Program-made: the position numbers and the translations under genes
DNA from: the human T2T-CHM13v2.0 reference genome, Homo sapiens
Assembly: GCF_009914755.1 (NCBI RefSeq)
Contig: NC_060925.1
Strand: one strand, 5' to 3'
Length of the DNA stretch: 64,000 nucleotides
In this document: one piece after another, positions 4,307-52,950 of the stretch
How positions within the stretch are numbered: the stretch's first letter is position 1
Layout of the letters: each line of letters starts with the position of its first letter
Notes under the pieces: model-generated
What the model saw: the letters and a program-made list of their open reading frames with translations, nothing else
Database searches by the model: none
What the model was told of the DNA's origin: nothing

Positions 4307-4319
4307 ATGCAGACCCCAG
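4307..4319 (+). CDS. RASAL2: RASAL2 short-isoform first coding exon (MQTP plus the first base of E)
   Basis: ATG CAG ACC CCA G is followed by a canonical donor (CAG|GTAAGA, GT at 4320). Joining it in phase 1 to 52844 gives MQTPEVPAERSPRRRS..., the N-terminus I recall for nGAP/RASAL2. Confidence 0.93.
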
Positions 4320-4914
4320 GTAAGAGTTTGTAGAGTCTGAGACCGAAATGAAAAGTCACGTATTTAAGGGGAATGTGGCTTTTTAAAAATTACACAAATG
4401 CAGTGACTATTTACCTTTATGATTATTGGCTTTAAAAAAATAGGTTGGTTTTTATTGCTGTGAGTTCACAGAAATACTGTGTGGAAGCTGTCTGTTAGCA
4501 TTCCAGTACAAAATCCAGCACAAGAATAGCCATCTAAGAAACTCAGATAAATTAAAAGAATAATGACCATAGCAAAATATTAACACTGCAGCATGTACTT
4601 GTTCTGTTAATAATATGAAATGGGTCCTTATTCTGGATCTTTCTTAAAATTCTTTATGAAATATAAAGATACCTGGGAACAGGTAAAGCTCATTTCTCTC
4701 TGAGTGAGACAGAATATATTGACCATCAACAAGATATTAACAGCCTTGCTTGAATCTCAGTAACACATAATCTGTGTCATTCAAAAGTTTAACAGGTTTG
4801 ATCCATAGACAGCAGTAAGAGCATTCAAATGAGAACTTTGCTTGTTATTTTTGCCCAAGGTAGGCTTTTAATATCCTCTGCCAAGATGACAGGTAAGAAA
4901 GTTTATTGACTTAT

Positions 4915-5070
4915 TGAAAGTTAAATCTGAAAGAGACTTGGAGATTATCTATAGTCTATTCTCTCCATTTTCAATGAAAATTTTGTGGTCTAAGGTACTT
5001 GCCCAAGGTCAGAATTAGGAACAGAATTGAAATGAAAACCCAGATCTCCTTATTGTCAGTTTAACGTGTT
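4915..5070 (-). mobile_element. MIR
   Basis: ccattttcaatgaaaa...acttgcccaaggtca...gaaaacccagatct, the MIR core in reverse. Confidence 0.6.
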
Positions 5071-6569
5071 TTTCATAGAACCAATTATATATAGGCTTAT
5101 ATTTTCTCTATACTACATCTGCTAGCCCCAATTACAATGAATTATTGCCTAAATAGACCAAGTACATCATAAACCTAGATTGAAATCTTATGGAGAGGAG
5201 GTATTGAGAAATGGATGTCATCAAATCACTATTGATACATGCTCTTGACCAAAACCAAAAACATGTAACAAAATATTTATCAAGAGGAAAAAATGGCTTT
5301 CAGTGAAGGAAAATTAGTTTGTACGCTGCTTTTAATTTTTTAAAAGACTTTAGGACATCAATTTTCTGTATAAATATGTTAGTAAACTTTTTTCTGTATG
5401 CAAATATCTATTTTTGTAATGTATCTGTTTTACTGAAAGCAAATCGTATTCACTGCCTTTGTTATGTTTATTCAAAAATATAAGATAATATTTTAAATTA
5501 TCCAGCTATTTTGACCAGTTGCTTCCTTATCCAAGGTCCATTTCTGTTTCTCCCTGCTTATAAGGATCGTCTGTTACTTCACCTCATGAATTATGTGTTA
5601 GCAGATAATTTAAGTGAAGGATCTTGAGAGCCGCAACAGACAGTGAACATCTGTCTTCATACATTTTCATTTAGTGCCTAAAAAAGGTTGCTGCCCTTTC
5701 CATTTTTCTGGAGACCATTGTGGGGATGAGAGGCCACACTATTCTAGTGAGCTAAATAGTAAAGATAGCCACTGTCAACAGAATCTGTCATGGCTCTTTA
5801 CAACTCCTGGGAACAAGTTAGCTTGATTTGGCTATAAGCACAGTAAAGGGATGTTGTCCTTTTGTATTAAAGCCTGACCTGCTCTTTCCAGTTTTTGGCT
5901 GGGTCTGTGTAAGTGTAGTACTGACTTACAAGTCTGTGTGGAATGGGCAGCAAGTTATAAGGAATAGTTTCATTACTCCTCTCGGCTATATCGGAAACCA
6001 AATTACCAAGTGAATTCTCCACCCAGTAGGAAAGAAGAGACTGTCTGTCTTACTGGAGAATCCATTATTTAAGCACTGTTTTTAAGAGGACTGATGGCTG
6101 TGAGAATGAGGACATTAATGCTCTATCCAACTTAACAGTATTCATGTTGTATTACACAAAGCTTAGATTCTTCTCTGAGCTTTTATCCTGCTTTTAATAT
6201 GTGAAAGGACTGCCATGATATATCTATGTATATTATGTTGTGTGTGTATATTATATGATAGAATAGAGAGTAAAATGGGCCTTTGGCCTGAGTATATTTT
6301 CTGATGCCAGAAATGATCAGAAGTCATTAATCTATTGCTGGTATTTTACTGACCTAAGTTAAAAGAAACTATTTTATTAACCAAGCTAATCATGATAAAA
6401 CTCACTACCATGCACTACAAAGAGAAAAATACTCAAAGGAAACACACTTCTTTTTTAATTCTGAAAACAAATGTCAGATTATGCAGGTTCATACCTTCCG
6501 TGTTAGAAAAAAAAAACAATAAAAAGGTGCCCACTTTGTGGCTAAAGATAAATTTTATTTTTAAACAAG

Positions 6570-6682
6570 TTTTTATTGGTGTATAATACATGTAGATAGT
6601 TGTGGGATTCATTTGATAATTTAATATGTTTACACAATTTGGAAAGATCAAATCAGTATACTTGGGATACCCATCACCTGAA
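6570..6682 (-). mobile_element. L1MA-type 3' end fragment
   Basis: ttttattggtgtataatacatgta...gatcaaatcagtatacttgggatacccatcacct. Confidence 0.55.
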
Positions 6683-7535
6683 AAGGAGACAAATTTTAAA
6701 TGGGAATAGAATGGGTATAGTGAAATGAGTGGCATAAAAAAGAAACTCTCATATGTATGTGAAATAATTTTCTTTTGACCAGTGTTTTCTTGAAGGCAGA
6801 CCTATTTTCACTATTCATGATTTTCTCCTTGATACTGTTTTAAAATTTTTTCCCATGAACAATCTATATATAAATATTGTTTATATATTAAATTTTCAAA
6901 GAAGGTAAAGAGCTCTGCTATGTAATGACAACATTTTCTGAAAAAGATTTGGCTATAGTTGATCAAAACTTTTGACTCATTGAAAGGAACTGCTTTCTTT
7001 GCTGTTGCAATTTCTTTCTACCTCTTGGGCATAATTCTATGTTATGTGTCCCAGTTAAATCCCCAAGAATGAAATATCTTCAAAGAAAAATGAAGGCAAA
7101 AGATAGGGGCCAGGAGCAGGGACTTGAAGCTGGACATATAAATTGTTCTGAGATGTCAAATTAATTCTTTACTCATGAAAGTTACCCAGTTATCCACCCA
7201 AGACTCCAAGAGTCCTTTTATGTAGACAACACGATTGTGTTTGCCCTTCTGCTCCAGTCTTGACCTTCAGCAGTCTCTAAAGAGGAAAAGTGTTTGTTAC
7301 AGACTCTTTTTGTTCTCTTCTGTTGTTTCACGCTCCCTAGTGGTTGTTCATGGTCATTCTTGTTTTCAGTTCCCTGTATATCAGTTGTAGTGAGAAGGAG
7401 AAGGAGGTGACTATTGTATTGTGAAATAAGGTTCACCGGATTCTTATATTTGAGTTGCATAAACTTTCTTAAAATAACTGATTCTTATATGCAGAATCAG
7501 AAGCAAAAATTTTTGTCCTGTTGTTCCTAGTGGAC

Positions 7536-7745
7536 AATGATTCAAGAAAATGAGTCATGACTCAGCGATATGAATTCTCTTTTAGCCGGGGTTATTTTTA
7601 ACTGCTGATGGGAATTCCATCTATCAAAATTCCACATTTAATTGTGGGTATGATCTCAGCTTGTGTTTGGAAGCCTTAAGCAATGCCACTCAGAATACTT
7701 TCTTTGTACATACTTGACAAGTAAGAGAGACTTACTGAGTCAGTG
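7536..7745. promoter_or_regulatory. AP-1/ARE/MEF2/NF-kB-like motif cluster (candidate enhancer)
   Basis: TGAGTCATGACTCAGC at 7551-7566, TTATTTTTAA at 7592-7601, GGGAATTCCA at 7610-7619 and TGAGTCA at 7736-7742. Confidence 0.45.
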
Positions 7746-8844
7746 ATTAAAATTCAGATGAAGGCCTTTGTCCTCTCTGGTACCCTCCTTGCCCCTACTC
7801 AAACCGTGTCATTAAGCTGAATTGGAAATACTGTTAACTCAAGCACATGAAGAGGGAACCATTGAGGAGATCCTGTTAATAATACGACTCTATAGAACTC
7901 CACATTTCTGTCATTCTCAGGTTTGCAATATTTTTTGAGTAAATGAGTTGCTGAAAAACACCTTGAAAAAGTAGTTTAGGTTTGTGCAGCCCTATTCTTT
8001 GAAGAAGAAAAGATACCTGGTTCTGCTTGCTCTTTCTAATGTCAGATCTTGGAAAATAAGCAACTTGAGCTGCTGGAATAAAGCAGGTGTCGTTCAGGAT
8101 CAAGTGTTGCCTAGGATAGCTAGCCTGTTAGACAAGTTGCTAACTGATGTCCTGAATCCAATTCCAAAGATTACGGAGTACCTTTGAAAAATGTTGTAAC
8201 AGCACTGTTGTGTAACTATTCGTAAATACTACCTTTAGTTTATATGAAGATTAGTAAAATGGGTATTCTTTCCATTTTTAAGATTCTGGTTTGTAACTTT
8301 TTTGCTAAAATACTTCAAGTGGGTTGTGTGTGCCTCTCGAGTCAGATCAGAGAAGGTAAGATGTCTGGGTCCCTACTTCAATCACTCTTCTTTCCAGGAA
8401 TACCTGGAATATGAAGTTTCAGGTAAATAAGTGAAGTGAAATAACAAAGAGAAGTGATTTGTCAAAATGAGTGCAAGAAGAGCCACCAAAAATCTAGCTT
8501 GTGTGAGTACATAGAATTGAGTTTGTTCAGTCAAAGGACAAGGGAAGATGTGATAAGTCTATTAACAGGGAAGGATAATCATCTCCTGTGTACCAAGAGC
8601 TCATTTCGAAGAGTGTGTCCAGTATGATTATAGAATATTTCTTATCAGTATTTTCTCAAAGTATGGGAAACTAATCCCTCAAACAAAGGGAAATAGATTA
8701 TTTCAATGCTTTCAACATGTGGTAGAGGAATTGCATCACACAGTATTTGGCCTGCTTTATTTATGAATCTCTATTGTACAGCTGAAATTTAAGGAGTTTT
8801 TTTATTAATTGAAATATTTTATCTTTCATATAGTTTGCCACATC

Positions 8845-10169: not shown

Positions 10170-11451
<1,282 letters not shown>

Positions 11452-11499
11452 TAAAAGTCCTTTTTTGTTTATGGAGAATGTGAGCAGGACACCAGGTTT

Positions 11500-11810
<311 letters not shown>

Positions 11811-11849
11811 GACACCAGGTTTATTTTCATGTTGAAAGTTCTCCAGTCT

Positions 11850-12929: not shown

Positions 12930-13244
<315 letters not shown>

Positions 13245-21029: not shown

Positions 21030-21830
21030 CATTATATTAAAATTATAAACTTCTGTCCATCTATAGACTTTAAGTAAAGAAGGTAAAAAGACCAGTTAGA
21101 AACTGAGAAATGATATTCACAAGACCCACAATTTTTCACAGGATTACTATCAAGGACATACAAAGAACTGCTATCTATTAATAGGCTGAGCATGACCAAC
21201 TCAATAGAAAAGTGGGCAAGAGATATAAAGAAGACTTTCACAAAAGCATAACATATATACCCATAGACTTATGAAAAATGTTCGGTATTACTGGTAGTCA
21301 GGATATGCAAAATCAACCATCTTATCTTCATTCCATGAGAAACACTAAAAATTCTGACAATACCAAGTATTAATATTGAGCAGAATGTAGATGACTCAGG
21401 ATTTCATATATCCTGCTGGTGGGAAAAAGTTTGGCATTGCTGAAGTTGAACATTTATATACCCTAAGCCCAGAGATTCTATTCCTATGTATATACCAAAG
21501 AGGAATTCCTACAAAGGATAAAAGAAGACATTTGCAAGGATGTTCACAGCAGCACTGACACCAATAGCAAAACTCTTAACAAAGGAAATACAATATACTT
21601 CAATAAGAGACTGAACCTGAATACCAACCCCAACCGCAACTCTTAATCTAAATTTGTTGTTATATTCAAACAATGTAAAAATTATACAGTAGTCAAATAA
21701 ACTACAGCAAAAATATGGAGAGATATGAGTAATATAATATTTAAATGGAAAAAGTTCAAAAGAATATATAAAACATGCTCTTTATGTAAAGTTAAAAATG
21801 ACTAAAATTTAAAAATGTGTATGAAAGTAA
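21030..21830 (+). mobile_element. Old L1 (L1ME-like) ORF2 end and 3'UTR
   Basis: aaattataaacttctgtccatc, caactcaatagaaaagtgggcaagaga and aaggatgttcacagcagcact. Confidence 0.7.
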
Positions 21831-21978
21831 ATTGTCTCCCAAATAATCTATACATTCGTTGTAATTCCAACTGAAATGTCAACACGTTTTTTGTTTTTTG
21901 TTTTTGGCTGGGAGTACAGAGGGACTTGATACTACCATTCATTTGGAAAAGTAAATACATTAATAAAAGGCCAAATAC
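21592..21978 (-). repeat. Inverted repeat, right arm (387 bp)
   Basis: aatatacttcaataagagactgaac...taataaaaggccaaatac is the reverse complement of 20259-20647. Confidence 0.97.
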
Positions 21979-23349
21979 AGGATTTTGTCAGTTGCCTTTT
22001 CAGCATGTACTGATATAATCATTTTGTTTTTACCTTTTAATCTCTTAATACAGTGTCATAATGATGTTGTATTAAAATATTTATTCATTTCTCCCAAGTC
22101 ACAAAAGTAAAGCCAGGAAACTTAAATATAGCAGGTCATTGAAAATACAAATTTGTTCTTTGCAGTATTCTTAAAGCCTTAGAATTTTTTGTGTTTTGTC
22201 ATCCAGCATACCGACCTTGTGCTCATCTTTTTACTCTGCTTATCTACTTTCATTTTACAAAACATCATTTTGGAATTTCCCAAGATACTTAAATTTTTAT
22301 TATTTATTAACTATGTGCAGAAAAACTTGGGGTCTCTCTTCATGCCAGCTAATTACACTACTGCTGTAAAATGAAGATGCAATTAGGGAAAGCAAGGCAG
22401 CAACTTACTACCATTTATTCTATGCTGTAGTCAGATGATGATGGTGAACTCTGATTTTGTTATAAATGACTGTAGATCTTTGATAAACCTTTGATGTTAC
22501 TGTTGTTGAATTAATTTCTCCTGTCTTACAGCGGCCTCTGTTGACCCCAAACCTTAAGATCTTTTTAGCGTATGAGACCTTAATAAATGATAGAAGAAGA
22601 AAAAAAATTGTGTTTGCAATTTTGTGATTTTTTTAACATATGGACTCACAGATTATATAAGCTTCAGGTCCCACAACACATGAGTCTGCCTCTGGGTGTA
22701 AGGGGTGAAGAGTGGGGGTTTTATTTACCCCAGTTCTTGCCCACAATTGTGCTATCACTGCTAGAAAGCTGATCTCTATGATGGGGAGCCAATCGTTGTT
22801 TACTTTACTTTCAGTAATTAAAGTTAATTTAATCTACTTGATTAAAATTTTATCTCATATCCTATTTAACTCCACCCCCAACCCCACCATGGAGTAGGAG
22901 ATAGCCAGCCAGTTCTTTCACTCCTCCACCCCTGCTCTACCCTCTTCAACTTCTAACCCTTCTGGCATTGGAGTAGGGAGACAGGATTGGAGAAAAGGTG
23001 TTCTGGTCTGATGCCACAGTTTTTACTTAGCCAGACATGAAATTACAAGCCCCTGTTGGTTATTGTTGCTTCTCTAGCTAACATTGGCCGTGAATTTGAA
23101 TGCCTTCTGCGTGTGTTCCAGTGCTGGTTCTGTTACAGGTAGAAGGGTGCAAACTCTTCAGAGGGGCCCATAGGAAGCTTCCCTACTGAATAGTTCTTTG
23201 GTGTTGGAGATCCAGCATCCACGATATAGACCTGGTTCTCTTTTTTGGTGTCTACTTAGCTCATAGTAATCAACTATATCTTTCCTTTGCATTCTTGTTC
23301 TTCCAGTCAGCAAGGTTACAGGCTGCTCCACTGCAGCACCTTGTTCAGG

Positions 23350-23555
23350 GTTTTATTTTACCAGGGCTGCTATAACAAAGAACCACTGACTGGGTGGCTT
23401 AGACAACAGAAATGTATTGTTTCACAGTTCTGGAAGTTAGAAGGTGTCAACGGGGTTGTTTCCTTCTGAGGGCTGTGAGAACGAATCTGTTGCATGCCTT
23501 TTCACCTCGCTTCCAGTGGGTTGCTGGCAATGTTTGGTGTTCCTTGGTTTGTAGG
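23350..23555 (-). mobile_element. MLT1 (B/C-like) LTR fragment
   Basis: agggctgctataacaaagaaccactgactgggtggcttagacaacagaaatgtattgtttcacagttctggaag. Confidence 0.8.
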
Positions 23556-24212
23556 TATGGGTGGGAAGAAAATAATAGAGTTTTATCCCTTTGGTTTTTA
23601 TCTGAAATAAGGAAAAGTGTACTTCACTAATATTTGCTTTATAGATTTGGAGCCCATGTATGTCATTTATGAATAAATATACTAGAGATATGAAGTTAAA
23701 TTTTCTATTGATATAATATTTAAGAAGTATAGACCATGAGCTTCTTGAGAACAAATCTTTTTCTAATTTGTCTCTATATTCCACAAATGTGATGTATTTT
23801 ATTGTAATGTTAATGAATTTCTGAGGTAGATAATAATGTAGTTCTGTAAAATAGTTCTGCCATTTAAACTCATTTAAGATCAAATAGGGCATGCTTTACA
23901 TATCTGTTGATGCAACTGTTTTGTCCAACTACAGCCGAATTTACAACAGATTCAAATACTAACCAGAAGGAAATTAATGAGTTGATTGTGGTATTTTTTT
24001 TTCAATCAGAAGTGTTTTCTGGATACATCTAGATACAGTGTTGTAACAATCCAGGTGATAAATGTATTGAACATTTTTTATAATTGTGGTTTTTAATGTA
24101 AAAAAAGAAAGGTATGAAAACCCTTGACTTTTTTTTGAGTTGCCAAAACATTTCTGTAATAATGTATACATTCTCCATAGCTATTAGTACCCGTTAGCTT
24201 TTTTTAATTGAA

Positions 24213-25051
24213 CAGTTGGCCCTTCATATCTCTGGGTTCTGCATATGTGTGGATTCAACCAACCATGGATCAAAAATATTCTTAAAAAAATTGCATCTGT
24301 ACTGAACATGTACAGACTTTTGTTCTCATCACTATTCCCTAAACTAGTGCTCCCCAGCCTTTTTGGCACCAGGGTCTGGTTTCATGGAAGATTTTTCCAT
24401 GGACAGGAGGGAGTCGGGGGTGGGGGTTGGTTTTGGCATGATTCAAGCACATTACACTTACTGTGCATTTTATTTCTATTATTATTACATTGTAATATAT
24501 AATGAAATAATTATACAACTCACCATAATGTAGAATCAGTGGGAGCCTGAGCTCGTTTCCCTGCAACTAGATGGTCTCATCTGGGGGTGATGGGAGACAG
24601 TGACAGATCATCAGGCATTAGATTCTCATAAGGAACACGCAACCTAGATCCCTTGCATGTACGGTTTACAATAGGGTATGTGCTTCTGTGAGAATCTGAT
24701 GCCACCACTGATCTAACAGGAGGTGGCGCTCTGGCGGTAATGCTTGTTCATCTGCCACTCACCTCCTGCTGTGCGGCCTACTTCCTACCAGGCCATAAAC
24801 CAGTACTGCTCCGTGGCCTGGGGGTTGGGGACCCCTGCCCTAAGTAATATAGTGTAATAACTATTTACATAGGATTTACATTGTATTAGGTATTACAAGT
24901 AATCTAGAGATGATTTAAAGTACATGGAAGGTTATGCATAGGTTATATACAAATACTGTGCCCTCTTTTATCAGGGATTTAAGCATCCATGGATTTTGAT
25001 GTCTGTAGGAGGTCCTGGAACCAATCCCCCATGGATACCGAGAGATTACTG
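24213..25051. mobile_element. MER2 (Tigger-family MITE) split by MER1A
   Basis: Left end cagttggcccttcatatct...ggattcaaccaacc; right end ggaaccaatcccccatggataccgagagattactg. Confidence 0.85.
24345..24837 (-). mobile_element. MER1A (hAT-Charlie) nested in MER2
   Basis: ccccagcctttttggcaccaggg...ggggttggggacccctg; 8-bp TSD ccctaaac/ccctaagt. Confidence 0.9.
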
Positions 25052-25054
25052 TGT

Positions 25055-26200
25055 ATGACTTAAGGTCTATAACATGATGTTTTGATATACATAGTGAAAT
25101 GATTACTACAGTCCAGCAAATTAACATATCTGTTATCTCATATACTTCTCTCCCTCCCTCCTTCCTTCTCTCCCTCCCTCCCTCCCTCTCTTCCCTTCTC
25201 TTTTCCTTCATAGTAAGAGTATCTAAAATCTACTCCCTTGGAAATTTCCAGTATAAAATATTATTAACCATAGTCCTCATGTTGTACACTAGATCTCTAG
25301 ATTTAGCCTACATAGCTGCAAACTTTATACCCTTTGACCTAATTCTTCCCATTTTCTCTGCCCCAGGTAACCAGTATTCTGCTCTTTGTTGCTATCTGTG
25401 TATTTGTTGTTGCATTTTTTGGTTTTTCATTATGTTTTTTTTTTAATTCCACATATAAGTGAGATCATGCAGTGTTTTTCTCTGTGTGTCTGGCGTATTT
25501 CACTTAGCATAATGTCCTCTAAGTTCATTAATGTTTTGCAAATGGCAGGATCTCTCTCTTTTTCAAGGATGAATATTTCATTACATACACACACACCCAC
25601 ATCATAGTTTCTTTATTCGTCAACAGGCACTTCAGTTGCTTCCATAACTTGTATTGTGAATAATGTTGCAATGAATATGGGAATGCAGATTTTTTTAATA
25701 AGATTGTGATTTCATTTCCTTTGAGTAGATACTCAGAAGAGGCGGGATTGCAGGGTCATATTACTAGTTCTATTTTTAATTCCTTAAGAAACCTCCATAC
25801 TGTTTTCCACACGGGCTGCACAAATCTGCATTTCCACCAACAGTGTACAAGGGTTCCCTTTTCCTCCCACTCTTACTAACACTTGTTATCTCTTGTTTTT
25901 TTGATAATAGCCATCCTAAAAGGGGTGAGGTGATATCTTATTGTGGTTTTGATTTTCATTTTCCTGATGATTAGTGATGTTGAGCATCTTTTCATATACC
26001 TGTTGGCCATTTTTATGTCTTTTGAGAAATGTTTATTCAGGTTCTTTGCCCATTTTTTAATTAGGTTATTCAATTTTTTGGCATTGCATCGTTATATATT
26101 TTTGATATTAACCCTTTATCAGATACATGGTTTGCAGATATTTTCTCCTAATGCGTAGGCCTCCTTTTCATTTTGTTGATTGTTTCCTTTGCTGTGCAAA
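25055..26200 (-). mobile_element. L1MA/MB 3' end, antisense
   Basis: ttccacatataagtgagatcatgcag, catttccaccaacagtgtacaagggttccc and gatgattagtgatgttgagcatcttttcatatacctgttggcc. Confidence 0.9.
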
Positions 26201-26526
26201 AAAAGGCTATTAACTTTTATCCGGTACCACACGTCCAAAGTTAGATTTAAATTAACATAGTTTTCATTGTAAAATTAGCAATGGTAAATTTGTCGAAGCA
26301 TTAAACAGCCTCATTAAATGTTCATAGGAGCAAATAACCATGTCAAATACCCTGTTCAGATATGGAAAAATTTTGCTCATTTAACAAATATTAAGCACTT
26401 ACTATGTGCCCAGCATTGACTAATGTTCAGTGAAATCCTTTTGTTAAGAGATTCTTTTGAAAAACAATCAGACTATAAATATTATTTATTGGTGGAAAAG
26501 AGTAAAACATCTATATGCTATAAAAA

Positions 26527-26887
<361 letters not shown>

Positions 26888-27019
26888 TTAACTCTGTTGT
26901 AGTGTCTCAGATCACTGATCAAGGAAAAGAGTTTTACTTCTCATTAAATAACTGTTCACCTTCACCCTTCATACCTCACCCAAAATATCTAAAAATGTTA
27001 TGGAAGAAATTCCAATATG

Positions 27020-27260
27020 GAATGTAGTTCTGAGTGTCGGCTCTGGAATAAGAATATCTAAGTCTTCACCCAACCTCCAATACTGGCTATATGACTTCAT
27101 CACTTCTCTAAACCTTTGTTTTCTCTGAACCTTAGTTTACTTAACTATAAAATGGGAAAAATGTTACTACAACCTTGTAGGGTTGATATGAGGAGAAAAT
27201 GAGAGGTTAATAGCACCTCACGTACTACCTAGTACATTGTAAATGCAGAATACATTTGAT
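27020..27260 (+). mobile_element. MIR
   Basis: ctctgaaccttagtttacttaactataaaatgggaaaa...gtagggttgatatgagga. Confidence 0.65.
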
Positions 27261-28141
27261 CTATTATTATTGTTGCTACAAGTATTCAAATTATTGCTAG
27301 GCCTAGTGACAAATTGCAGGAGATGTTACCCTAATGATTTTCAGTTTACTTACAGAGCAGTGCTAATCATAGGTATATTGGGTTTATATATCCATCTATG
27401 CATCTACTCAATAAATATTAGGTAGCTACTATTTGCTTGATATTTTGTTAGGTGCTAAAAGTGATAGGCTCCAAGAATTGTATATACTATGAGTAAAATG
27501 TAAAATATAACTTTATATTAAAGAAAAAATATTTCAAGAATAGTTATGCATTAGCTACTTTCTGGGTCTTTTTGAGAAGGAGTTATCTGTTCATTAACAA
27601 CAGCTGTCACTGTATTTACTTTTTTTTTCTTAGAAGAATAGCTTTAGTATTTAAAGAATCTGATTATCTTTAATTCTAGATAATCATTAACGTCTTTAAA
27701 CAGAACCTGCCTTTAGCTTTGAATGGAATATTTCTGTTGAGCACATGTTTTATAATACTGTTGACTACCTTGCTTTTTTTTTTATTACTTTACATCTTGA
27801 TAGCCTTTTTCACTGAAATCAAAGCAACTTCTATGTATATATTAAATATTCATATGATGGGAATACTTCTGATGCTAACATCCTTGTTACATTGTGGCTT
27901 TGCATGTCTAAGTATTGCTTCCTAAATCTAGATAAATGAAAATTCATCTTAGTTTCATTAGTTTCATCAGCTCTAATCTTATAATACCTTATATGATCAT
28001 ATAATACTATATCTCCTCACTAAAATACAAGGAAAGTTATAGTTTGATATTTACTTTAAGCTTCTTTGAGGAAAAGTATTGTACATGTACAAAGGAGTAT
28101 CAAGATAGAGATGCAATCATGGTATCTATCCTCTAGTTGCC

Positions 28142-28196
28142 TGTTATGTTATGTTATGTTATGTTATGTTATGTTATGTTATGTTATGTTATGTTA
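28142..28196. repeat. (TGTTA)11 pentanucleotide microsatellite forming an Alu tail
   Basis: Eleven perfect copies between the TSD and the Alu body. Confidence 0.97.
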
Positions 28197-28489
<293 letters not shown>

Positions 28490-29359
28490 TAGAAAACTAG
28501 TTATTCTTGCTTTCAGTCCTTTATCACAATAGTGTATTGAATGTCCGTAAGTTCAATAGTAATCCTCCAAATATTTGAGACATATTTTAATATTATATAG
28601 ATTATTACTTTGAATTATACTTGCAATCAGTACCCATGATTTCTCAGTCACCATTGCTTGAAGACACTTTGTTTTTCAAATAAATGCCTTTTTATGATAT
28701 TGAAATATAATTTGTATAGTAGATTATTCATGGAGTAGCATGCCTAATTTTATCCTTAAAATGTCAACCAACATCAATGTTAAATTTCCTGATTTTAATT
28801 TTTGTTCTTGGTTTAGTAAGAGAATGTCCTTTGTTTTAGAAAATGCACACTGAAACAGTTGCTGGTAAAGGGCATAATGTCTCCAGCTTCCTCAAATGAG
28901 TCAGGAAAAATGCATATATATAATAAAAATATACATAGAGTGATTCAGCAAAGTTGGCAAAATGTAAACTGTTGATAAATCTGGAAAAAAGATATTCAGG
29001 AGTTGCTTATACTATTTATATAAAGTTACTAAAAAATCTACACCAACTTTAGTTATCAGTTTAGGAAAAGATCATGTATTACTTGCCTTTGTTCATTCTT
29101 GAGTATCTAGCATTAATCTTTTCCTATGTGCAAGAATACTAAAGCAGGAGGAAAGAGACTGAGTTAGTGGTTTTGGTTTCTTCAAGAAGGATGGAAATCC
29201 CAGAGGAATTAGGGAGAAAATGTGGTGATTGTAAAATTAGAAGATAACGCTCATCCGCTGTCACATTTTAAAATTACTTGGTACCTCCCACCCCCCCCCC
29301 CCCAAAAAAAAACACAGATTATAGAAAACATCTTATTTGGACATCCTTTTGAAGTATAA

Positions 29360-29805
29360 GGCTTCCACACAAAAACTTGTACACAAATTGTTCATGGCAG
29401 CATTCTTCATAATATTAAAAAGTAGAAACAACCCAAATGTCCATTAGTGGAATATTTTCGGCCATAAAAAGGAATGAAGTACTCGCTAAAACATGGATGA
29501 ACCTAAGTAAAAGAAACCAGGCATAAAAGACCACATATTATATGATTTCAGTTGTATAAAATGTCCAGAATAGGCAAATGCATAGAGTCAAAACTTAGAT
29601 GAGTATTTGTTAGGGGATTAGGGGCTGGGGAGTATACAGAGTGACTGCTAATGGACACAGAGTTTCTTTTACAGGCCATGAAAATGTTCTGTAATTAAAT
29701 AGTAGTAATGGCTACAAAAATGTGAATGTATTAAAAATCACTTTAAAAGGATGAATTTTATAGTATGTGAATTATATTTCAATAAAGCTCTTATTTTAAA
29801 AAAGT
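29360..29805 (+). mobile_element. L1MB/MC 3'UTR
   Basis: ccacacaaaaacttgtacacaaat, gccataaaaaggaatgaagtact and gtatgtgaattatatttcaataaagct. Confidence 0.85.
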
Positions 29806-29809
29806 AAAA

Positions 29810-30310
29810 CCTTGCCCATCACTCTTGCCTCGGAGTCTTCCTGTCTAATTAAAGGTAAGTCAAAGACCCCTAACATTACATGATCTGGCTTCCTATTACT
29901 CCACAGTCTGATCTCCTTTTACTTTTTCCCTCTCATTCCAGTCTAGCTGCAGTGCCTCCTGGCTGTTCTTGCCTCTAGTCTTTTTATTGGTAGTTCCTTC
30001 TTCCTAAAACTTACCACCTTTAACAGTTTAGTCAAATGTCAACCTCTCAGCAAGGCTTTCCCTGGCTACCCTCTCTGAAATTGTAAACCTCCCCCAGATT
30101 ACCTATTTCCCCTTTTTGCTTTACTCTTCTCCTTGGTATTATTTACCATCTAACACAATATATATTTTACTTTTTTATCTTACTATTTCTCTTCCCCATA
30201 AAATATAAGCTCCCTGAGGACAGAGATTTTGTTGCTTTTGTTCACAACTGTATGTGGGGGTCTAAAATATGCTTGGCACATATTAGCACTGATATTGTTG
30301 AATGAATGAA
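29810..30310 (+). mobile_element. L2 3' region
   Basis: Ends with aagctccctgaggacagagattttg...tggcacatattagcactgatattgttgaatgaatgaa. Confidence 0.8.
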
Positions 30311-30638
30311 TCTGAAAGTATGAGTACAAGCAGCTATAATGAAAATCAGGAATACTAAGTAATTGAAGAAAGGGCTACATATTTTATGCCCTTTATTAAA
30401 ATAAAAATTAAGTATCTCATGGGACCATGAAACTAAAGGAGTAGAAGGAAAGCAGTAATTTCTGTCTTGAAAGCAAAATAATAAGACAATTATTCAGTTA
30501 TTAAAATGGAAATAAAACGTTATTTGACCCAGGCAGATAATAGTTACTTTACTTTTCAATGATAAGGACTTGGTAGATATCCGGACATACATTAAGTACT
30601 GAAAATATGTTGCCTGAATGGACAGTGTTGACATAAAT

Positions 30639-30846
30639 CAGGGATCATTTAAGTATGGCCCATGCCTTTTTTTGTAAAAAAATTTGTATTGGAACACAGC
30701 CATGCCCATTAGTCTACGTATTTTCTATGGTTGTTTTTGTGCTATAACAGTGGAGTTAAAGTAGTTGCAGCAGATTATATGACCCACAAAACTTAAAATA
30801 TTTACTATCTGGCCCTCCACAGAAAAAGTGCATTTGCTGACCCCTG
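30639..30846 (+). mobile_element. MER58A (hAT-Charlie)
   Basis: attggaacacagccatgccca...aaaatatttactatctggccc...gctgacccctg. Confidence 0.85.
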
Positions 30847-30869
30847 CCTAAATTGGTCTCTGTGGAATA

Positions 30870-31090
30870 TGGATTAGTATAATAGAGAATCATGACCAAG
30901 CCTTCAGAAGTTTACGTTTCATTTCCTGGACTGGCTGTGTTGATTTGGAAAAGTTAAGTTCTATGATTTTCGGTTTCTCATCTGAAAATGAATAGAATAC
31001 TTATCTCACGTGGTTGTTGTTTAAGAATTTTAACTGAGCTAATGTGTATAAAGCACTTAGTGAAGTGCCTAGTAAACAGTAAATGTCAGC
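30870..31090 (+). mobile_element. MIR
   Basis: tttctcatctgaaaatg...gtgtataaagcacttagtgaagtgcctagtaaacagtaaatg. Confidence 0.7.
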
Positions 31091-31334
31091 CCAGTAAGTA
31101 GCACATGCATATGTGTATATGCATATATACAGACATGCACATACACACAGGAAATGCATATGCCCTCAAATAGGAACTCTGTAAGTCACCAAGCATTCTC
31201 CAGACACTTTCTATATTTTTAAGTAAATAATGAATAAAGTTAATTAGTAAGTACTTACTACACATAAGACGACATGGTAAACTGCCAAAATGTATGGGAT
31301 TTTGTTTTTTATGTAGAAAATTATAGTCAAACAT

Positions 31335-31630
<296 letters not shown>

Positions 31631-31830
31631 TTCAAGCATTATTTCTGACAGCCCTATTTACAGTATTTTGATGCTCTTGACTCACATTTTAGCAAAATGT
31701 ACAGCCCACTATAGAGTTTTACATTTTCAGGTAAGTTTCAATGTTTTATTTTTAAGGAAGGACTAGTTCATGCTTTGTTCGGATTATAAAAAGAGGAAAA
31801 CAGTGTAATGCCTTATACATCATATTATGA

Positions 31831-32230
<400 letters not shown>

Positions 32231-34028
32231 TGGGTGCCTCATTTTCTAACTGTCAGTATACAGAAGGCAAATTCATAGGGCTGGATTATTTTGATGACCT
32301 TTCTAACTATACAGTGTTTTCTTTGTTAAAATAAATAAGAGATTTAATTTTTCCTTAACCAAGTTATTTTGGTTGTTAAATAAGAAGACCAATGGTATGA
32401 ATCCTTAAATCAGGATATCTTTAGTATTAAGATATCTGCAATACATGAAATTATAATCTCACTTTCAATAATAATCTAGTAAACAGTTATAAATCTACTA
32501 TATGCTAGGCATTAAAATTTTTTAAAAACTTAGTAGAACAGAAATTTTGTTTTCTAAAGGTATGAGATATTGTTGAGAAAAACATTATGTAAACAAGTAA
32601 TTTTAATAACATAATAGTAATAACAATGAAAGTACGGACGTGAGAGCCATTAGTTCTACTTTAAGATGTCAGGGAAGACCTGGAGAGGTGACATTTGAGC
32701 TGAGTCTCAAGGGAACAGTTCAATATTGTCAGATGTATATGGTAGAGTGATACCACACAAGAGGTACCAAAGTCATTCGGCAAAAATCTTTGAGCTTCTA
32801 CTGTGTGTCAGATAATGTTTTAGGCAGTTGAACAAAACAAAACAGTTGTCTAGTTGTTCTATACAAATGAACAAAACAAATGACTTTTTTCTGCCACTTT
32901 CAGTGGAACATGTAAAGGCGTGGAAGTGAGGTAAATAATACAGAATGGCTGAGTCGAGAGGAGTCTGGGGGTCCCTGACAAGAAAAAAGCAGAAGCCGTG
33001 TCACACCAGGAAGTTTGAGTGTAATCCTGTAGGCTACTGATGTCCAATCCCAGAGCTCCAGGGATACTGGTGTGTCATGAAGTTATTACAAAGGAATTAG
33101 CAATCCATGCTTAGATATTAAGCATGCATAGCCTGTGGATTTTAATAAAATGTCTTTTACACCTATTTTTGTACTACTTCTCAATTTTTTGTAGTTATTT
33201 TGAGTAATAGAAACTCATTTAAACATATGAATTCATAATACCTTTTTCGACAATTTTTATTTTCTCAATCGTGTGGTACTGTCACTTTAACTACTTTTAA
33301 GTAATCGTCAAAATGGTTAATTTTTAAATGAGGTCCTAAAATATTCAGCCTGGCATCTCCTGCCAGTGTTGAACCTGTTAAAACTTCTAGAGCTACCATC
33401 TAAAACTTCAGTTAATATTTGATGAGCTCCATCTAAGTGCCAAGCACTGCTCTAGCCACTAGGATTACAAAGATTAATATAAAACAAGGTCCATGTCCTC
33501 AGGGAACTTACAGTCATAATGAAATAGAGTCTAGATTAAAAATAAATAAGACTGAAGTAAGCATGGAGAAAAGGGTATAGATTCAGGATATGTTAAGGAG
33601 GTAGTAACTCTTAATCAATGAGAATCTCTCACTGAAAGCAGACTACTAGAATAGAAGCAAAGACCAGATTCTTAGGAAAAGAGCTAGTGTTTTGCTAATA
33701 CAGGGGAAAAAAAGCTCTATCTTTTATTAAGAATATTGTTTTATCCTAGTAACAAGCCTAATCAATCTCCAGAGAACAAGGATATTAATAATTTATGGTT
33801 CTGTGAACATACCTCTTCTGCTTGATTTTTCTCTGCCTGGTAATAAGGTATAAACCTGTGAAATAATCTTAAGTCAAACCATGAAAATATGTAATGTAAA
33901 CGATGTAAAAAATTCATCTGGATCTGACACCTTCATGATGATGTTGCAGAACAGTCATTCTCTATGTTGATCTCTGTACCTTCAGCCCAACAAGCTTACT
34001 TCTCTTCTTTCAGATTTCAGCCTTCTTT

Positions 34029-34031
<3 letters not shown>

Positions 34032-34082
<51 letters not shown>

Positions 34083-34105
34083 TACACACACACACACACA
34101 CACAC
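34032..34105. repeat. (CA)n microsatellite, ~36 units with one interruption
   Basis: Read directly from the sequence. Confidence 0.98.
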
Positions 34106-34109
34106 TTCC

Positions 34110-34500
34110 TTTCTTTCCTCGCAAAGAAAGACAGCTATTGACTAGAAGCCCAGAATTGCCCCCAAGTTCCGACCACCAGCTCGAATTCTTATGAAGTGGA
34201 CTTGTAATATCCTTAATGTTGCTGTTGGCAGTCAGTTACAGATTCCATTATTGTCGATCAGTGCAGTCGCCATGCGAGGTGGGGGGAGGAATGGAGGAGG
34301 AGGAGAAGAAAGGAGGGATGAGAGCTTCCTATTCACAGATTTATCAACCTGCCTTTTCTTGCAGGAAATCTTCGTAAAGGGGGCTGTTGAAATAGCTAAA
34401 GCAGGAAGGGGAAGGGGGCTGCAGTTCTTGCGGAGGACTGAAAGGAAATTTGAAAACCTTTCTCCTCAAAACAAAACAAAATGCTGAATTTGTTCTTTTG
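34110..34500 (+). promoter_or_regulatory. Putative intronic promoter/enhancer next to a (CA)n repeat
   Basis: Repeat-free, with several CpGs and G-rich/GGA-rich tracts, upstream of the 34945 exon candidate. Confidence 0.4.
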
Positions 34501-34944
34501 TCTTTGTTTTTGTTTGATATTTTTTACTTAACTGATTAGCTATTGTGCTGTCTGGTTATCTAAGCTGCTTCCAGTGTAGGAACCTGTTTCTTTTTCTTTG
34601 AGTGTCTTTATTCTTTATTTTCGTATGATTTTTCCTGTCATTAAACACACTTCATTATTCAGTGTTATCCTGGCTTTTTCTTTCAGACTAAAGCATAACA
34701 CCAAGAGACAGAAGGACAAATCTCCCTTCTCTTCTCTTATACCACCCTCTTTTAACCCTATTTCTTTCCCCCTCCCCCTGGTTGTATTAGATTGATGTCA
34801 CAGAGACAGAATTCAGAGTGGAGGGAGGATCACATTTTCTCTTTCATCATTACTGCCTAGCCAGCAATTTAAGTGTTGGACCCCCAAGAATTTAGTCTCT
34901 GTATCCTTTTTTTCTCACTTCATCATTCAGTAATTGTGCTCTGT

Positions 34945-35050
34945 ATGGAAAAGTTTTCTGGCTGGAGAATGAGTCTCCTTTCCCCCGGTGATGTGGCGGA
35001 GTGGTTGGATAGTAGCACCGAAGAAGAGAAGAGCCTTCTGTCATTTCTGG
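34945..35050 (+). CDS. RASAL2: Candidate alternative RASAL2 exon, MEKFSGWRMSLLSPGDVAEWLDSSTEEEKSLLSFL; either a first exon or a 120-nt cassette from 34931
   Basis: Repeat-free and coding-like, 35 codons + 1 nt, ending at TGG|GTACGG in phase 1, which fits the 52844 acceptor. A phase-1 acceptor (tttttctcacttcatcattcag|) also exists at 34930. Confidence 0.55.
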
Positions 35051-44600: not shown

Positions 44601-44662
44601 AAATAAAGGTGTTAGGCCCTATCTGTAGATTAGAAGAGATAGTTGATGACAAAATAAAACTC

Positions 44663-47249: not shown

Positions 47250-47446
<197 letters not shown>

Positions 47447-50525: not shown

Positions 50526-51559
50526 AAAAAGAGAAAAGAAAACAGAAGTATAACAATACCATATTTATTGGAGTTTGAAATGTGGCCACTAATTTTAGTC
50601 AATATAGTTTCAAATAGTTAAAAGCATTGAAACATATTCATTTAATGAGTTTGTATGCCTGAAAACTAAAATTGGATGTATGGAAGAAAGTGAGGAAATT
50701 AATTTCAGTTTTTTTTCCTTAGCCAGAACATTGCAAATTAAGGAAATGGTTTACTAGATCATTTTATCCCAGCTAATGAAATTTATTTTTCCCCCAATTT
50801 AGTTTCTCTGTCAATTATTCAGAAATTAAAACATACTATATTGTAATATTAAATCTCCAGTGTCTTCTAATTTGATATGAGGTTACCTTTATAGGTAATT
50901 ATTAGAGGAAAGGTGAGATTTTTTTTCTACCTTCACCAGCCCCATTCCCTGCCTGCCTTGCCCCTAGCCACATAGAGTCATCTAACTTGGATAATTACTC
51001 TGTAAAGTCATATTCCTGAAGTCTGGAAGTCTTTCTGTTCAATGTGCTCCAACAAGCTGATTTACTTAAATTCAGTGCTTTGTGCCATTCCCATGAATCT
51101 GAGCTAATTATGCTGCCATTTTTCAGCGATGTGCATTAGAAGTCATGTGTGCCTAATTCTGAGAACAGCTTTGCACATTAAGGCTCATTTGACTAGTGAT
51201 GGTTAGAGAGAAGTTAAGGGACTTACAGTTACTGGTCATAATTTTAAAATACAGTAGTAGTATGGAACTCTCTTGTACTGCAAGCATACAAGATGCTATG
51301 TTGTCAGCCTCTCAGTCTTTAGGAATGTTCCAATTTGGCTTGTGCCTTACCAGTCAAGATGTCACAGAGAAGATATGTTTAGTCATGGAAAAGAAAATCA
51401 GTGTCCAGCATGCAAAGATAGTAAAAGGGTAAGCACTTCCAGTTGGATTTTCATAGGAGGAATTGATTTGTGTGCATTACTGGATCTGTGTAAAATGGTG
51501 TCCTTTTGGCACTAGGTGGATATACATTTCAGTAAATGTTTTTTCTTGCTGCAGATTAG

Positions 51560-52029
51560 TGTAAGACAGTGAAATTTTCAGTAACTGAGGGAAGGCAGTG
51601 GTTGGGCATCTGTTAATAGCCTGAAAGTAACTAATGAGGATGTGCAGTCAGAACGATTGATTGAATAGCTGCAGTCCTGTGTATTTCTTTCTTGCTTGCT
51701 CTCTGCAAGCTGTGGAGAGGGAGGGGGAAGAGCAAGACACAGAGAGGGAGCGAGAGAAAAAACGCTCTCTCTTAAGTGGAAGTAGCACGGATCCCAGGGG
51801 CCAGGAGGCCAGAAATGGAAGTTTAAACTGCATCTGTCTTTTAAAGGGAGAACAGCAGGAATCAAAATGTCAGTCTCCGGAGTTACGATTTACTCCTTGT
51901 TTTCTAAGATCTGGAAGATAACACAGAATACTTTTTTTAGGATGTGGCTTTTTTTTCCTTGTCCATGTTGAGATTATCTAATGTTATCTGAGAAGCTGGA
52001 TTCCTTTATGTCTGTCAGTTGAAGTGGCG
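51560..52029 (+). promoter_or_regulatory. Putative proximal alternative promoter / 5'UTR
   Basis: Repeat-free, GA-rich and locally GC/CpG-richer block immediately upstream of the MGSSCDK candidate. Confidence 0.4.
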
Positions 52030-52051
52030 ATGGGAAGCAGTTGTGATAAAG
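52030..52051 (+). CDS. RASAL2: Candidate alternative RASAL2 first coding exon, MGSSCDK(E)
   Basis: Strong Kozak gcgATGG, 7 codons + 1 nt, donor AAG|GTATAA in phase 1, and an in-frame upstream stop at 51979-51981. It lies ~790 nt before the shared exon, after a purine-rich repeat-free block. Confidence 0.5.
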
Positions 52052-52843
52052 GTATAATACGTATATATCTATCATCTGTGTGTGCGTGTGTATGCATATA
52101 TATATACACATGTATATATATATCACTCTATGAAAAAATCTTAAAAATGTAGCCTTAATACAGTATATAGTAATTAAATGGGAGAAGATCACATTATCTG
52201 CAAAATCCTAAGCTTGTTAGGTTAGTTTGAACAGATTTAGGATTCCAGAGTAAGATCTTAGTAAGGTCATATTGCCAGAACAAGGAGAAGCTGATCTATT
52301 TTTATATCTGCATAGGCATATATGTTATTTTATCTTGGCAGCAGCTTTCAGTCTTCTCATGGCCCTTTTGTTGCAGTCTGGTGAATCATCTTATCTGCAC
52401 AGAACTAACTTTGACCTTTGTGCAAACACCATCAAATCATATGCAACATTAGACTATATTTTGTTCAGAAGAATATTAGAAATTCCATTTTATTCTATTA
52501 ACTCCTACATTGCTGACATGTAGAGAAGTAGATTTATATACTGTGAGATGCAACTATTAAGTGAACTTAAAGATATTAAACATAGCTCAGAGGAAATTAT
52601 TTTTATATGTGCACAGATGAAAATATAAACTGTCACACTAAAGCAGATTCTTAACTGTGACCAAGTCTCTCTAGTGTCTTGATAGTTTAAGCACCTCAAA
52701 GATAGATAAATTATGTGAGATAGAATGTAATATACCTTTAAAGCATGCTGGTTTATTGTGAAAAACCAGTAACTTTACAGTTCAGTGGAAGATCCTAAAT
52801 TTGGGGTTCTTAATGATGTTTCAACTTTCCTCCTTTTTTCCAG

Positions 52844-52950
52844 AGGTACCAGCAGAAAGGTCCCCTCGTAGACGGAGTATCTCAGGGACCAGTACATCAG
52901 AGAAACCCAACTCCATGGACACTGCAAATACCTCACCCTTCAAAGTACCA
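52844..52950 (+). CDS. RASAL2: RASAL2 internal coding exon, 107 nt, (E)VPAERSPRRRSISGTSTSEKPNSMDTANTSPFKVP; phase 1 in, phase 0 out
   Basis: Pyrimidine tract ctttcctccttttttccag| acceptor and CCA|GTAAGT donor. The peptide matches the RASAL2 segment just before the PH domain and is homologous to DAB2IP ESPQERPGSRRSLPG. Confidence 0.96.

What the first reader, a model, noticed from the sequence alone, without database searches (positions are those of the whole stretch)
4307..52950. Several phase-1 exons could supply interchangeable N-termini to one shared RASAL2 exon
Seen: the shared exon at 52844 needs a phase-1 partner, and three separate repeat-free islands each end in an ATG-initiated ORF with a phase-1 GT donor. 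These are MQTP (4307-4319), MEKF...LSFL (34945-35050) and MGSSCDK (52030-52051). Established: the paralogues SynGAP1 (A/B/C N-termini) and DAB2IP use several promoters splicing into the homologous pre-PH exon. The long RASAL2 isoform also enters here, from upstream of this window. Inference: RASAL2 may have at least four interchangeable N-termini, two of which I do not recall as curated isoforms. They could set localisation or regulation of the RasGAP.
Basis: partly seen in the sequence, partly recalled or inferred. Interest (0 to 1): 0.8.

Follow-up and report, generated by a model that had tools for sequence, protein, structure and literature searches.

The report
Alternative RASAL2 first exons, already annotated
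The human RasGAP gene RASAL2 has several alternative start exons that each give the protein a different short beginning; they are real and partly very old, but they are already in the public annotation and nobody has yet studied what they do.

Summary
The sequence pattern alone proves nothing. By a crude donor score, 61 such units lie upstream of the shared exon at the donor strength of the MEKF and MGSSCDK exons.

Support comes from two other sources:
- **Annotation:** the hub's RefSeq table lists exons ending at exactly 4319, 35050 and 52051.
- **Orthologue records:** MEKF… begins RASAL2 models of a bat, a shrew, two parrots and a snake, with 26 of 35 positions invariant. MGSTCDK and MMGNSCDR begin models of a sparrow and a char.

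MKWT…AMR lies at 34191-34278, ends at an annotated donor, and is used in goat and camel models. The MEKF exon also has an acceptor and is 120 nt long, so it could act as an in-frame cassette, but 0 of 155 fetched proteins use it that way.

All short forms keep the PH-like, C2 and GAP domains. AlphaFold shows no structure for the MEKF peptide, at low confidence. These are ordinary alternative first exons, already annotated, and their function is untested.

The parts
4092..4161 (.). Probable bidirectional TATA-less promoter between the lncRNA LOC105371629 (minus-strand 5' end at 4091) and the MQTP exon (plus strand, 4162). It holds a GC box at 4107-4112 and inverted CCAAT boxes at 4102-4106 and 4142-4146.
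   Evidence: sequence; the GC box is at -55 and is one of only 5 in the 64-kb window; the CCAAT boxes are at -60 and -20. The transcript ends come from the hub table. Motifs only; no transcription-start data were available.
4162..4319 (+). Alternative first exon 'MQTP'. The coding part is 4307-4319 (MQTP plus 1 nt), with a strong donor CAG|gtaaga. The 145-nt leader holds 2 upstream ATGs.
   Evidence: exon ends from the hub table. That this is the curated short RASAL2 isoform is recalled and was not checked here.
34191..34278 (+). It encodes a 29-residue peptide running from MKWTCNI to SAVAMR, plus 1 nt, with donor GAG|gtgggg. It ends exactly at the annotated exon end 34278, and a (CA)n run lies upstream at 34033-34106.
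   Evidence: the goat P0134 N-terminus maps to 34191-34277 with 28 of 29 residues identical, E 6.9e-15. Camel P0052 holds the same peptide. Crude donor score 3.59. Coding status is uncertain because the non-ORF sequence just upstream is conserved as well.
34931..35050 (+). 'MEKF' exon, 120 nt, with acceptor …tcattcag| and donor TGG|gtacgg. The coding part from ATG 34945 gives 35 residues plus 1 nt. The whole exon is open in phase 1, so it could also be an in-frame cassette.
   Evidence: Orthologue N-termini: (26 of 35 positions invariant). Exon against flanks. Exon ends from the hub table.
51256..52051 (+). Alternative first exon 'MGSSCDK' (annotated starts 51256-51260). The coding part is 52030-52051 (7 codons plus 1 nt), the ATG context is gtggcgATGG, and the donor is AAG|gtataa. 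The 774-nt leader holds 18 upstream ATGs.
   Evidence: Sparrow P0095 begins MGSTCDK and char P0128 begins MMGNSCDR, each directly before the shared-exon sequence.
52844..52950 (+). Shared RASAL2 coding exon, 107 nt, entered in phase 1 and left in phase 0. It lies just upstream of the PH-like domain.
   Evidence: 97-100% identity to mammalian orthologues. Pfam PH_RASGAP begins about 30 residues after the junction.

Best explanation
RASAL2 carries an array of alternative 5' exons inside the large intron that separates the long-isoform exons (upstream of this window) from the shared exon 52844-52950.

Each 5' exon supplies its own ATG and ends in phase 1 with a G. Every one of them therefore joins the shared exon in frame and makes the same Glu codon (G|AG). 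The units in the window are:
- MQTP (4307-4319), driven by a GC-box/CCAAT promoter shared head to head with a lncRNA.
- MKWT…AMR (34191-34278).
- MEKF…LSFL (34945-35050).
- MGSSCDK (52030-52051).

All of these forms keep the PH-like, C2, RasGAP and C-terminal domains. They differ from the long form by lacking its conserved N-terminal region and carrying a short peptide instead; AlphaFold gave no structure for the one peptide modelled, the MEKF peptide, at low confidence. They are most likely alternative-promoter isoforms of the kind shown for SynGAP, giving tissue- or state-specific expression and perhaps different targeting.

Shown here: the anatomy, the frame compatibility, the peptide conservation and the retained domains. 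Inferred: separate promoters (apart from motifs at 4162), translation from these ATGs, and any functional difference.
For: - **Anatomy and frames:**
- **Annotation:** the hub's RefSeq table has exons ending at 4319, 34278, 35050 and 52051.
- **MEKF N-terminus in orthologues:** it is followed directly by the shared-exon sequence in 5 of 155 fetched RASAL2 cluster representatives. These are the bat Rousettus, the shrew Sorex, the parrots Pezoporus and Strigops, and the snake Notechis.
- **MEKF conservation:** 26 of 35 positions are invariant with human. Identity to human is 94% for the parrot and 89% for the snake, against 89% and 68% for the shared exon in the same proteins. The shrew has a one-codon in-frame deletion.
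- **MEKF exon against flanks:** two unnamed mammalian read-through ORFs match the exon at 35/35 and 34/35. The flanking intron read in the same frame matches at 18/24, 6/9 and 18/27.
- **MGxxCD[KR] before the shared exon:** 2 of 155, the sparrow Melospiza and the char Salvelinus. Gly2, the Cys and the Asp are kept in all three species, human included.
- **MKWT peptide:** the goat form matches at 28/29 and ends at the annotated donor.
- **Domains:** Pfam PH_RASGAP is complete (profile 2-127 of 127) in the long, MEKF, MKWT and MGNSCDR forms.
- **Promoter motifs at 4162:**
- **SynGAP precedent:** PMC3621422, passages.
Against: - The MEKF and MGSSCDK donors are weak by my crude score (0.63 and 0.68), and 61 chance units reach that level.
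- The annotated MGSSCDK leader holds 18 upstream ATGs. The only annotated first exons reaching the MEKF/MKWT region start at 21806 and are 12.5-13.2 kb long, with 278 ATGs between 21806 and the MEKF ATG. This looks like retained-intron or nuclear RNA, so the true start sites are unknown.
- There is no CpG island. No GC-box, CCAAT or TATA motif lies within 200 nt upstream of 51256, 34191 or 34931; the only hit in those scan windows is a TATA-like run 32 nt downstream of the 52030 ATG.
- Apart from unnamed ORFs, every orthologue record I fetched carries a predicted-model or genome-annotation name. I saw no cDNA, CAGE, ribosome-profiling or peptide evidence.
- The short forms are rare among the representatives: 137 of 155 are the long form. 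Clustering at 90% identity hides isoforms, so this is not an abundance estimate.
- Sequence just upstream of the MKWT ATG is conserved in the camel record, and human has a stop codon further upstream in that stretch. Its conservation may therefore be regulatory and not coding.
Confidence: 0.8

Rival explanations
1. The MEKF, MKWT and MGSSCDK exons are non-coding or noise. On this reading they are model artefacts built from intronic RNA, or 5'-UTR exons and promoter or enhancer DNA whose conservation is regulatory. Translation would then start elsewhere, or the transcripts would be unproductive.
For: - Weak donors and many chance look-alikes.
- 18 upstream ATGs in the MGSSCDK leader, and giant 12-13 kb first exons (and the hub table).
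- No core-promoter motifs within 200 nt upstream of these exons.
- The non-ORF flank upstream of MKWT is conserved in camel.
- AlphaFold shows no structure for the MEKF peptide, pLDDT below 50.
Against: - MEKF is 89-94% identical at the amino-acid level between human, parrots and a snake. That is at least as high as the constitutive shared exon in the same proteins.
- An in-frame one-codon deletion in the shrew keeps the frame.
- The exon is more conserved than the flanking intron in two other mammals.
- MGxxCD[KR] with its ATG, frame and junction recurs in human, a passerine and a salmonid.
- Regulatory conservation would not need to keep an ATG-to-donor frame. This rival stays strongest for MKWT.
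Confidence: 0.15
2. Exon 34931-35050 acts mainly as an in-frame cassette exon. It would insert 40 residues between an upstream phase-1 exon (the long-isoform exon, MQTP or MKWT) and the shared exon, and would not mainly provide an N-terminus.
For: - It has a good acceptor (…tcattcag|), is 120 nt long, and is open throughout in phase 1.
- A preceding G would make Val, and the ATG is in that frame.
- RefSeq lists it as 34931-35050, that is with an upstream exon. The exon ending at 34278 is also phase 1 (hub table).
Against: - 0 of 155 fetched RASAL2 representatives have the peptide internally. All 5 that contain it start with its Met.
- Only 14 nt lie between the acceptor and the ATG, so an open frame there is expected by chance.
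- The upstream exon may simply be non-coding leader.
Confidence: 0.1

Closest known systems
SynGAP (SYNGAP1) N-terminal isoforms A, B and C from alternative promoters
   Same: Same RasGAP subfamily and the same principle. Different transcription starts give different N-terminal peptides on a common PH-C2-GAP core. For SynGAP the N-termini change the effect on synaptic strength (PMC3621422, passages).
   Different: SynGAP C has no unique peptide and has a truncated PH domain. All RASAL2 short forms tested keep the complete Pfam PH_RASGAP match. I did not verify that the SynGAP exons join at the exon homologous to 52844. No 5'RACE or functional data exist for RASAL2 in the papers I could search.
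DAB2IP transcript variants (hDAB2IPA and hDAB2IPB)
   Same: A paralogue with two common transcripts, one of which has its own methylated promoter (PMC4826168, passage; title of Qiu 2007 seen in its reference list).
   Different: I saw only a review passage and a reference title. The exon structure and join point were not checked here.
N-terminal fatty-acylation signals (Src-family SH4 type, Met-Gly… with nearby Cys)
   Same: MGSSCDK has Gly2 and a Cys at position 5. Both are kept in the sparrow and char versions.
   Different: Position 6 is Asp in all three species, whereas Ser/Thr is preferred by N-myristoyltransferase (PMC5170614, passage). It also fails the PROSITE-type pattern, which I recalled and did not check. 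No paper I could search links RASAL2 to acylation.

Membership tests
Alternative first exon / alternative-promoter N-terminal isoforms | Each variant exon has its own ATG and a donor whose phase matches the common exon | tested here: met
   All four units end 1 nt into a codon, and the shared exon starts with 2 nt of a codon.
Alternative first exon / alternative-promoter N-terminal isoforms | Each variant has its own transcription start and promoter | tested here: inconclusive
   GC-box and CCAAT motifs plus a divergent lncRNA lie at 4162 (hub table). No core-promoter motif lies within 200 nt upstream of 51256, 34191 or 34931. The 34931 exon has an acceptor. CAGE and chromatin data are not available with these tools.
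Alternative first exon / alternative-promoter N-terminal isoforms | Transcripts join each variant exon to the common exon | not testable with these tools
   Only the hub's RefSeq exon list is available, and it gives exon ends but not whole transcript chains. Orthologue protein models show the MEKF, MGxxCD[KR] and MKWT junctions.
Alternative first exon / alternative-promoter N-terminal isoforms | The variant peptide is under coding constraint | tested here: met
   Met for MEKF: 26 of 35 positions invariant from mammals to a snake, an in-frame indel, and exon more conserved than flanks. Met for MGxxCD[KR] in human, sparrow and char. Inconclusive for MKWT (mammals only, flank also conserved). MQTP is too short to judge.
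N-myristoylation signal | Gly at position 2 | tested here: met
   MGSSCDK. The sparrow and char versions also have it.
N-myristoylation signal | Small uncharged residue, preferably Ser/Thr, at position 6 | tested here: not met
   Asp at position 6 in human, sparrow and char. The preference is stated in PMC5170614 (passage).
N-myristoylation signal | Acylation shown by labelling | not testable with these tools
   Needs metabolic or click labelling.
In-frame cassette exon (for 34931-35050) | Acceptor and donor present, length a multiple of 3, open in the entering frame | tested here: met
   120 nt, AG acceptor, GT donor, no stop in phase 1.
In-frame cassette exon (for 34931-35050) | Found between two coding exons in a protein | tested here: not met
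   0 of 155 fetched RASAL2 representatives.
RASAL2 / SynGAP-subfamily RasGAP (shared exon) | The exon translation matches RASAL2 orthologues and lies before the PH_RASGAP, C2, RasGAP and DAB2P_C domains | tested here: met
   97-100% to mammals; Pfam architecture.

The most novel reading that the evidence does not exclude
The 7-codon MGSSCDK exon may be an ancient N-terminal membrane-anchoring signal, kept since the common ancestor of bony vertebrates. The likeliest form is S-palmitoylation of the invariant Cys5, with or without atypical myristoylation of Gly2. It would make a constitutively membrane-tethered RasGAP isoform. The 35-residue MEKF peptide, conserved across amniotes and with no predicted structure at low model confidence, may be a second and distinct targeting or regulatory module. 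RASAL2 output would then be set by the choice among at least five N-termini, as in SynGAP.
Probability: 0.15. Interest if true: 0.55.

Novelty: already known. Interest (0 to 1): 0.3.

Why it matters
RASAL2 is a RasGAP that has been studied both as a tumour suppressor and as an oncogene, and most studies treat it as one protein. If the short N-termini direct the same catalytic core to different places or partners, as the N-termini of its paralogue SynGAP do, then isoform choice could explain conflicting results.

The exons themselves are already in RefSeq. What this check adds is modest:
- Two of the predicted N-termini are conserved deeply enough to be taken seriously as coding. MEKF is conserved across amniotes, and MGxxCD[KR] is shared with a teleost.
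- A fourth unit (MKWT) exists in the window.
- All the short forms tested (MEKF, MKWT and the char MGNSCDR form) keep the PH-like, C2 and GAP domains.

Tried and rejected
- **MEKF exon as a diverged copy of the long-isoform N-terminus.** MAFFT had aligned the two, but BLASTP finds nothing (E 1.6). Rejected.
- **MEKF peptide elsewhere in the protein universe.** A 40-residue search of 1.84 billion cluster representatives gave 5 hits. Two are read-through ORF fragments of the same exon, and three are multi-stretch hits to unrelated proteins; the one I read (P0160) is an internal tandem repeat. The peptide appears specific to RASAL2.
- **Short forms lacking half of a split PH domain that the long form completes.** The AlphaFold model of the bat MEKF form shows only 3 strands and a helix before the C2 domain. 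The model of the horse long form was too poor to use: mean pLDDT 47.8, with much of the known GAP fold below 50. No structure of this region has been solved. Pfam calls the PH-like domain complete in all forms. Left open and not claimed.
- **Other N-termini seen in orthologue models.** Hummingbird MGEEILH…, a lizard cassette and salmonid forms have no counterpart in this window by tblastn.
- **RASAL2-AS1 as the divergent lncRNA at 4091.** It lies next to the long-isoform promoter instead (PMC12785090, passage).
- **The dual-coding preprint 10.64898/2026.05.28.727796.** It names RASAL2, but the passages I saw do not place the region, so I did not use it.
- **Calls that yielded nothing.** Paper one search (min_terms 2) returned only unrelated papers. 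The search of earlier findings was not open.
Full report
**Observation**

I read the four places directly and translated them.

- ATG 4307 reads MQTP plus one G, then CAG|gtaaga.
- ATG 34945 reads a 35-residue peptide running from MEKFSGW to SLLSFL, plus one G, then TGG|gtacgg.
- ATG 52030 reads MGSSCDK plus one G, then AAG|gtataa.
- The shared exon 52844-52950 is 107 nt and follows a strong polypyrimidine acceptor. Entered in phase 1 it gives Glu at the junction and then a 35-residue stretch running from VPAERSP to SPFKVP, and it ends in phase 0.

Frame 0 of the shared exon is also open. That the VPAERSP frame is the real one follows from its 97-100% match to mammalian RASAL2 proteins.

**Is the pattern more than chance?**

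On sequence alone, no. I scored donors with a crude matrix built from recalled consensus frequencies, so the scores are only a rough ranking.

- The MQTP donor scores 7.16. The MEKF and MGSSCDK donors score 0.63 and 0.68.
- Upstream of the shared exon, 61 GT sites at a score of 0.6 or more are reached in phase 1 by an ATG-started open frame. Of these, 51 have 7 or more codons and 10 have 35 or more.
- Two unannotated sites, 4829-4892 and 8244-8355, have donors as good as the MQTP donor.

**Independent evidence**

The hub's RefSeq table lists RASAL2 exons of other transcripts at 4162-4319, 21806-34278, 21806-35050, 34931-35050 and 51256(-51260)-52051.

I then asked whether the peptides occur in orthologues.

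- A 40-residue translation of the MEKF exon found RASAL2 (nGAP) records that start with this peptide and continue directly with the shared-exon sequence. These are the bat Rousettus (100%), the parrots Pezoporus and Strigops (94%) and the snake Notechis (89%).
- Two further searches were aimed at the region after the junction. One gave 479 hits among 543 candidates, of which 120 were listed. The other gave 93 hits among 97 candidates, all listed. Together they brought in 155 RASAL2 cluster representatives.

I sorted the 155 by what precedes the shared exon:

| What precedes the shared exon | Count |
|---|---|
| Long-isoform exon | 137 (plus one variant of it) |
| MEKF… (the four above plus the shrew Sorex) | 5 |
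| MGxxCD[KR] (sparrow Melospiza MGSTCDK; char Salvelinus MMGNSCDR) | 2 |
| MQFT (a hummingbird) | 1 |
| MKWT… (goat, and the same peptide inside a camel record) | 2 |
| Other single forms | 5 |
| No recognisable junction | 2 |

These are representatives of 90%-identity clusters taken from the top of ranked lists. The counts say which forms exist in records, not how common they are.

**How constrained are the peptides?**

For MEKF:
- 26 of 35 positions are invariant in human, bat, shrew, two parrots and the snake.
- Identity to human is 94% (parrot) and 89% (snake). The constitutive shared exon in the same proteins is 89% and 68% identical.
- The shrew differs by a one-codon in-frame deletion.
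- Two unnamed mammalian ORFs read through this exon. They match the exon at 35/35 and 34/35, but match the adjoining intron read in the same frame at 18/24, 6/9 and 18/27.

This is what a coding exon looks like.

For MGSSCDK:
- The peptide is too short for any search statistic. tblastn gives E 0.5-1.4, and a chance MGSSC occurs at 56250.
- The point is positional. The annotated N-terminus joined to the shared exon in a primate, a passerine and a salmonid is M-G-[SN]-[ST]-C-D-[KR], with Gly, Cys and Asp invariant.

For MQTP: four residues cannot be judged. I recall that it is the curated short isoform but did not check this.

**A fourth unit and a cassette option**

- The goat N-terminus maps to 34191-34277 with 28 of 29 residues identical (E 6.9e-15). 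That is one base short of the annotated exon end 34278.
- The window there reads ATG, 29 codons, one G, then GAG|gtgggg. The crude donor score is 3.59.
- Its coding status is less sure. It was seen only in mammals. The sequence just upstream of its ATG is also conserved in the camel record, and human has a stop codon further upstream in that stretch.
- The MEKF exon has an AG acceptor, is 120 nt long and is open in phase 1 over its whole length. The chains 34278>34931>52844, or any phase-1 exon>34931>52844, would therefore stay in frame.
- No fetched protein uses it internally, 0 of 155. I rate the cassette reading low.

**Promoters**

- The 70 bases between the lncRNA 5' end (4091, minus strand) and the MQTP exon start (4162) hold a GC box and two inverted CCAAT boxes. 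The GC box is one of five in the whole window. This looks like a TATA-less bidirectional promoter.
- No region is a CpG island. CpG observed/expected is 0.41 at 3900-4400, against 0.19 for the window.
- No core-promoter motif lies within 200 nt upstream of 51256, 34191 or 34931; the only hit in those scan windows is a TATA-like run 32 nt downstream of the 52030 ATG.
- The annotated MGSSCDK leader is 774 nt long with 18 upstream ATGs.
- The only annotated first exons reaching the MKWT/MEKF region begin at 21806 and are 12.5-13.2 kb long (hub table). That suggests the true start sites of these forms are not yet defined.

**What the N-termini change in the protein**

- Pfam finds PH_RASGAP complete (profile 2-127 of 127), followed by C2, RasGAP and DAB2P_C, in the long, MEKF, MKWT and MGNSCDR forms. 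The PH-like match begins about 30 residues after the junction. So the catalytic and lipid-binding core is the same in all of them.
- The short forms lack the long form's N-terminal region. That region holds a block that is invariant or nearly so across 96 long-form sequences.
- In an AlphaFold model of the bat MEKF form (mean pLDDT 57.5), residues 1-122 have no secondary structure and pLDDT below 50. These residues cover the MEKF peptide and the shared exon.
- A model of the horse long form was too poor to use, with mean pLDDT 47.8. No structure of this region has been solved. Whether the long N-terminus completes a split PH domain therefore stays open.
- The MEKF peptide has no similarity to the long form. 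It has no relatives outside RASAL2.

**Mechanism**

The best reading is an array of alternative 5' exons of matched phase. They are probably driven by separate promoters, and they put different short peptides, none with a predicted fold in the one model obtained, on one PH-C2-GAP core. SynGAP does this through alternative promoters, and its N-termini alter its effect on synapses (PMC3621422, passages).

DAB2IP has two common transcripts (PMC4826168, passage; title of Qiu 2007 only).

An acylation role for MGSSCDK is attractive because Gly2 and Cys5 are invariant. However, Asp at position 6 goes against the Ser/Thr preference of N-myristoyltransferase (PMC5170614, passage). I treat it as the bold reading and not the best one.

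**Novelty**

- The exons are in RefSeq, and the peptides are in public orthologue records.
- Five searches of the held library found no paper on RASAL2 N-terminal isoforms or promoters. One search found none linking RASAL2 to acylation.
- Subscription journals and bioRxiv supplements were not searchable.

The feature is known as annotation but unstudied as biology. Interest is modest.

Noticed in passing
window 34191-34278: An ATG-started 29-codon ORF (MKWT…AMR) ends in phase 1 at an annotated exon end. Goat and camel RASAL2 models use it as, or within, the N-terminus.
   Followed up: yes
window 34033-34106 and 34279-34320: A (CA)n microsatellite lies just upstream of the MKWT ORF, and a purine-rich GGA/GAG run follows its donor directly.
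   Followed up: no
window 52052-52120: The intron right after the MGSSCDK donor starts with a TA/TG-rich low-complexity stretch. The donor itself (AAG|gtataa) is weak by my crude score.
   Followed up: no
window 51981-52022: Two short upstream ORFs (ATGs at 51981 and 52008) share a TGA stop at 52020-52022, 7 nt before the MGSSCDK ATG. That ATG has a good context (G at -3 and G at +4). The layout could allow reinitiation control.
   Followed up: partly
window 4829-4892 and 8244-8355: Two unannotated ATG-open phase-1 units have consensus-strength donors (CAG|GTAAGA and AAG|GTAAGA). The second lies just after the annotated enhancer at 7502-8070.
   Followed up: no
window 52844-52950: The shared exon is open in two frames, frame 0 as well as the RASAL2 frame. 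A preprint lists RASAL2 among genes with dual- or triple-coding regions, but the passages I saw do not say where (10.64898/2026.05.28.727796).
   Followed up: partly
P0050 residues about 60-150 (alignment A3): The long-isoform N-terminal region, absent from all in-window forms, holds a block that is invariant or nearly so across 96 vertebrate sequences. No Pfam family was reported there in the one long form scanned, P0051.
   Followed up: partly
P0063, P0027, P0152, P0154, P0156: Lizard, hummingbird and salmonid RASAL2 models carry further different sequences before the shared exon. None has a counterpart in the human window by tblastn.
   Followed up: partly
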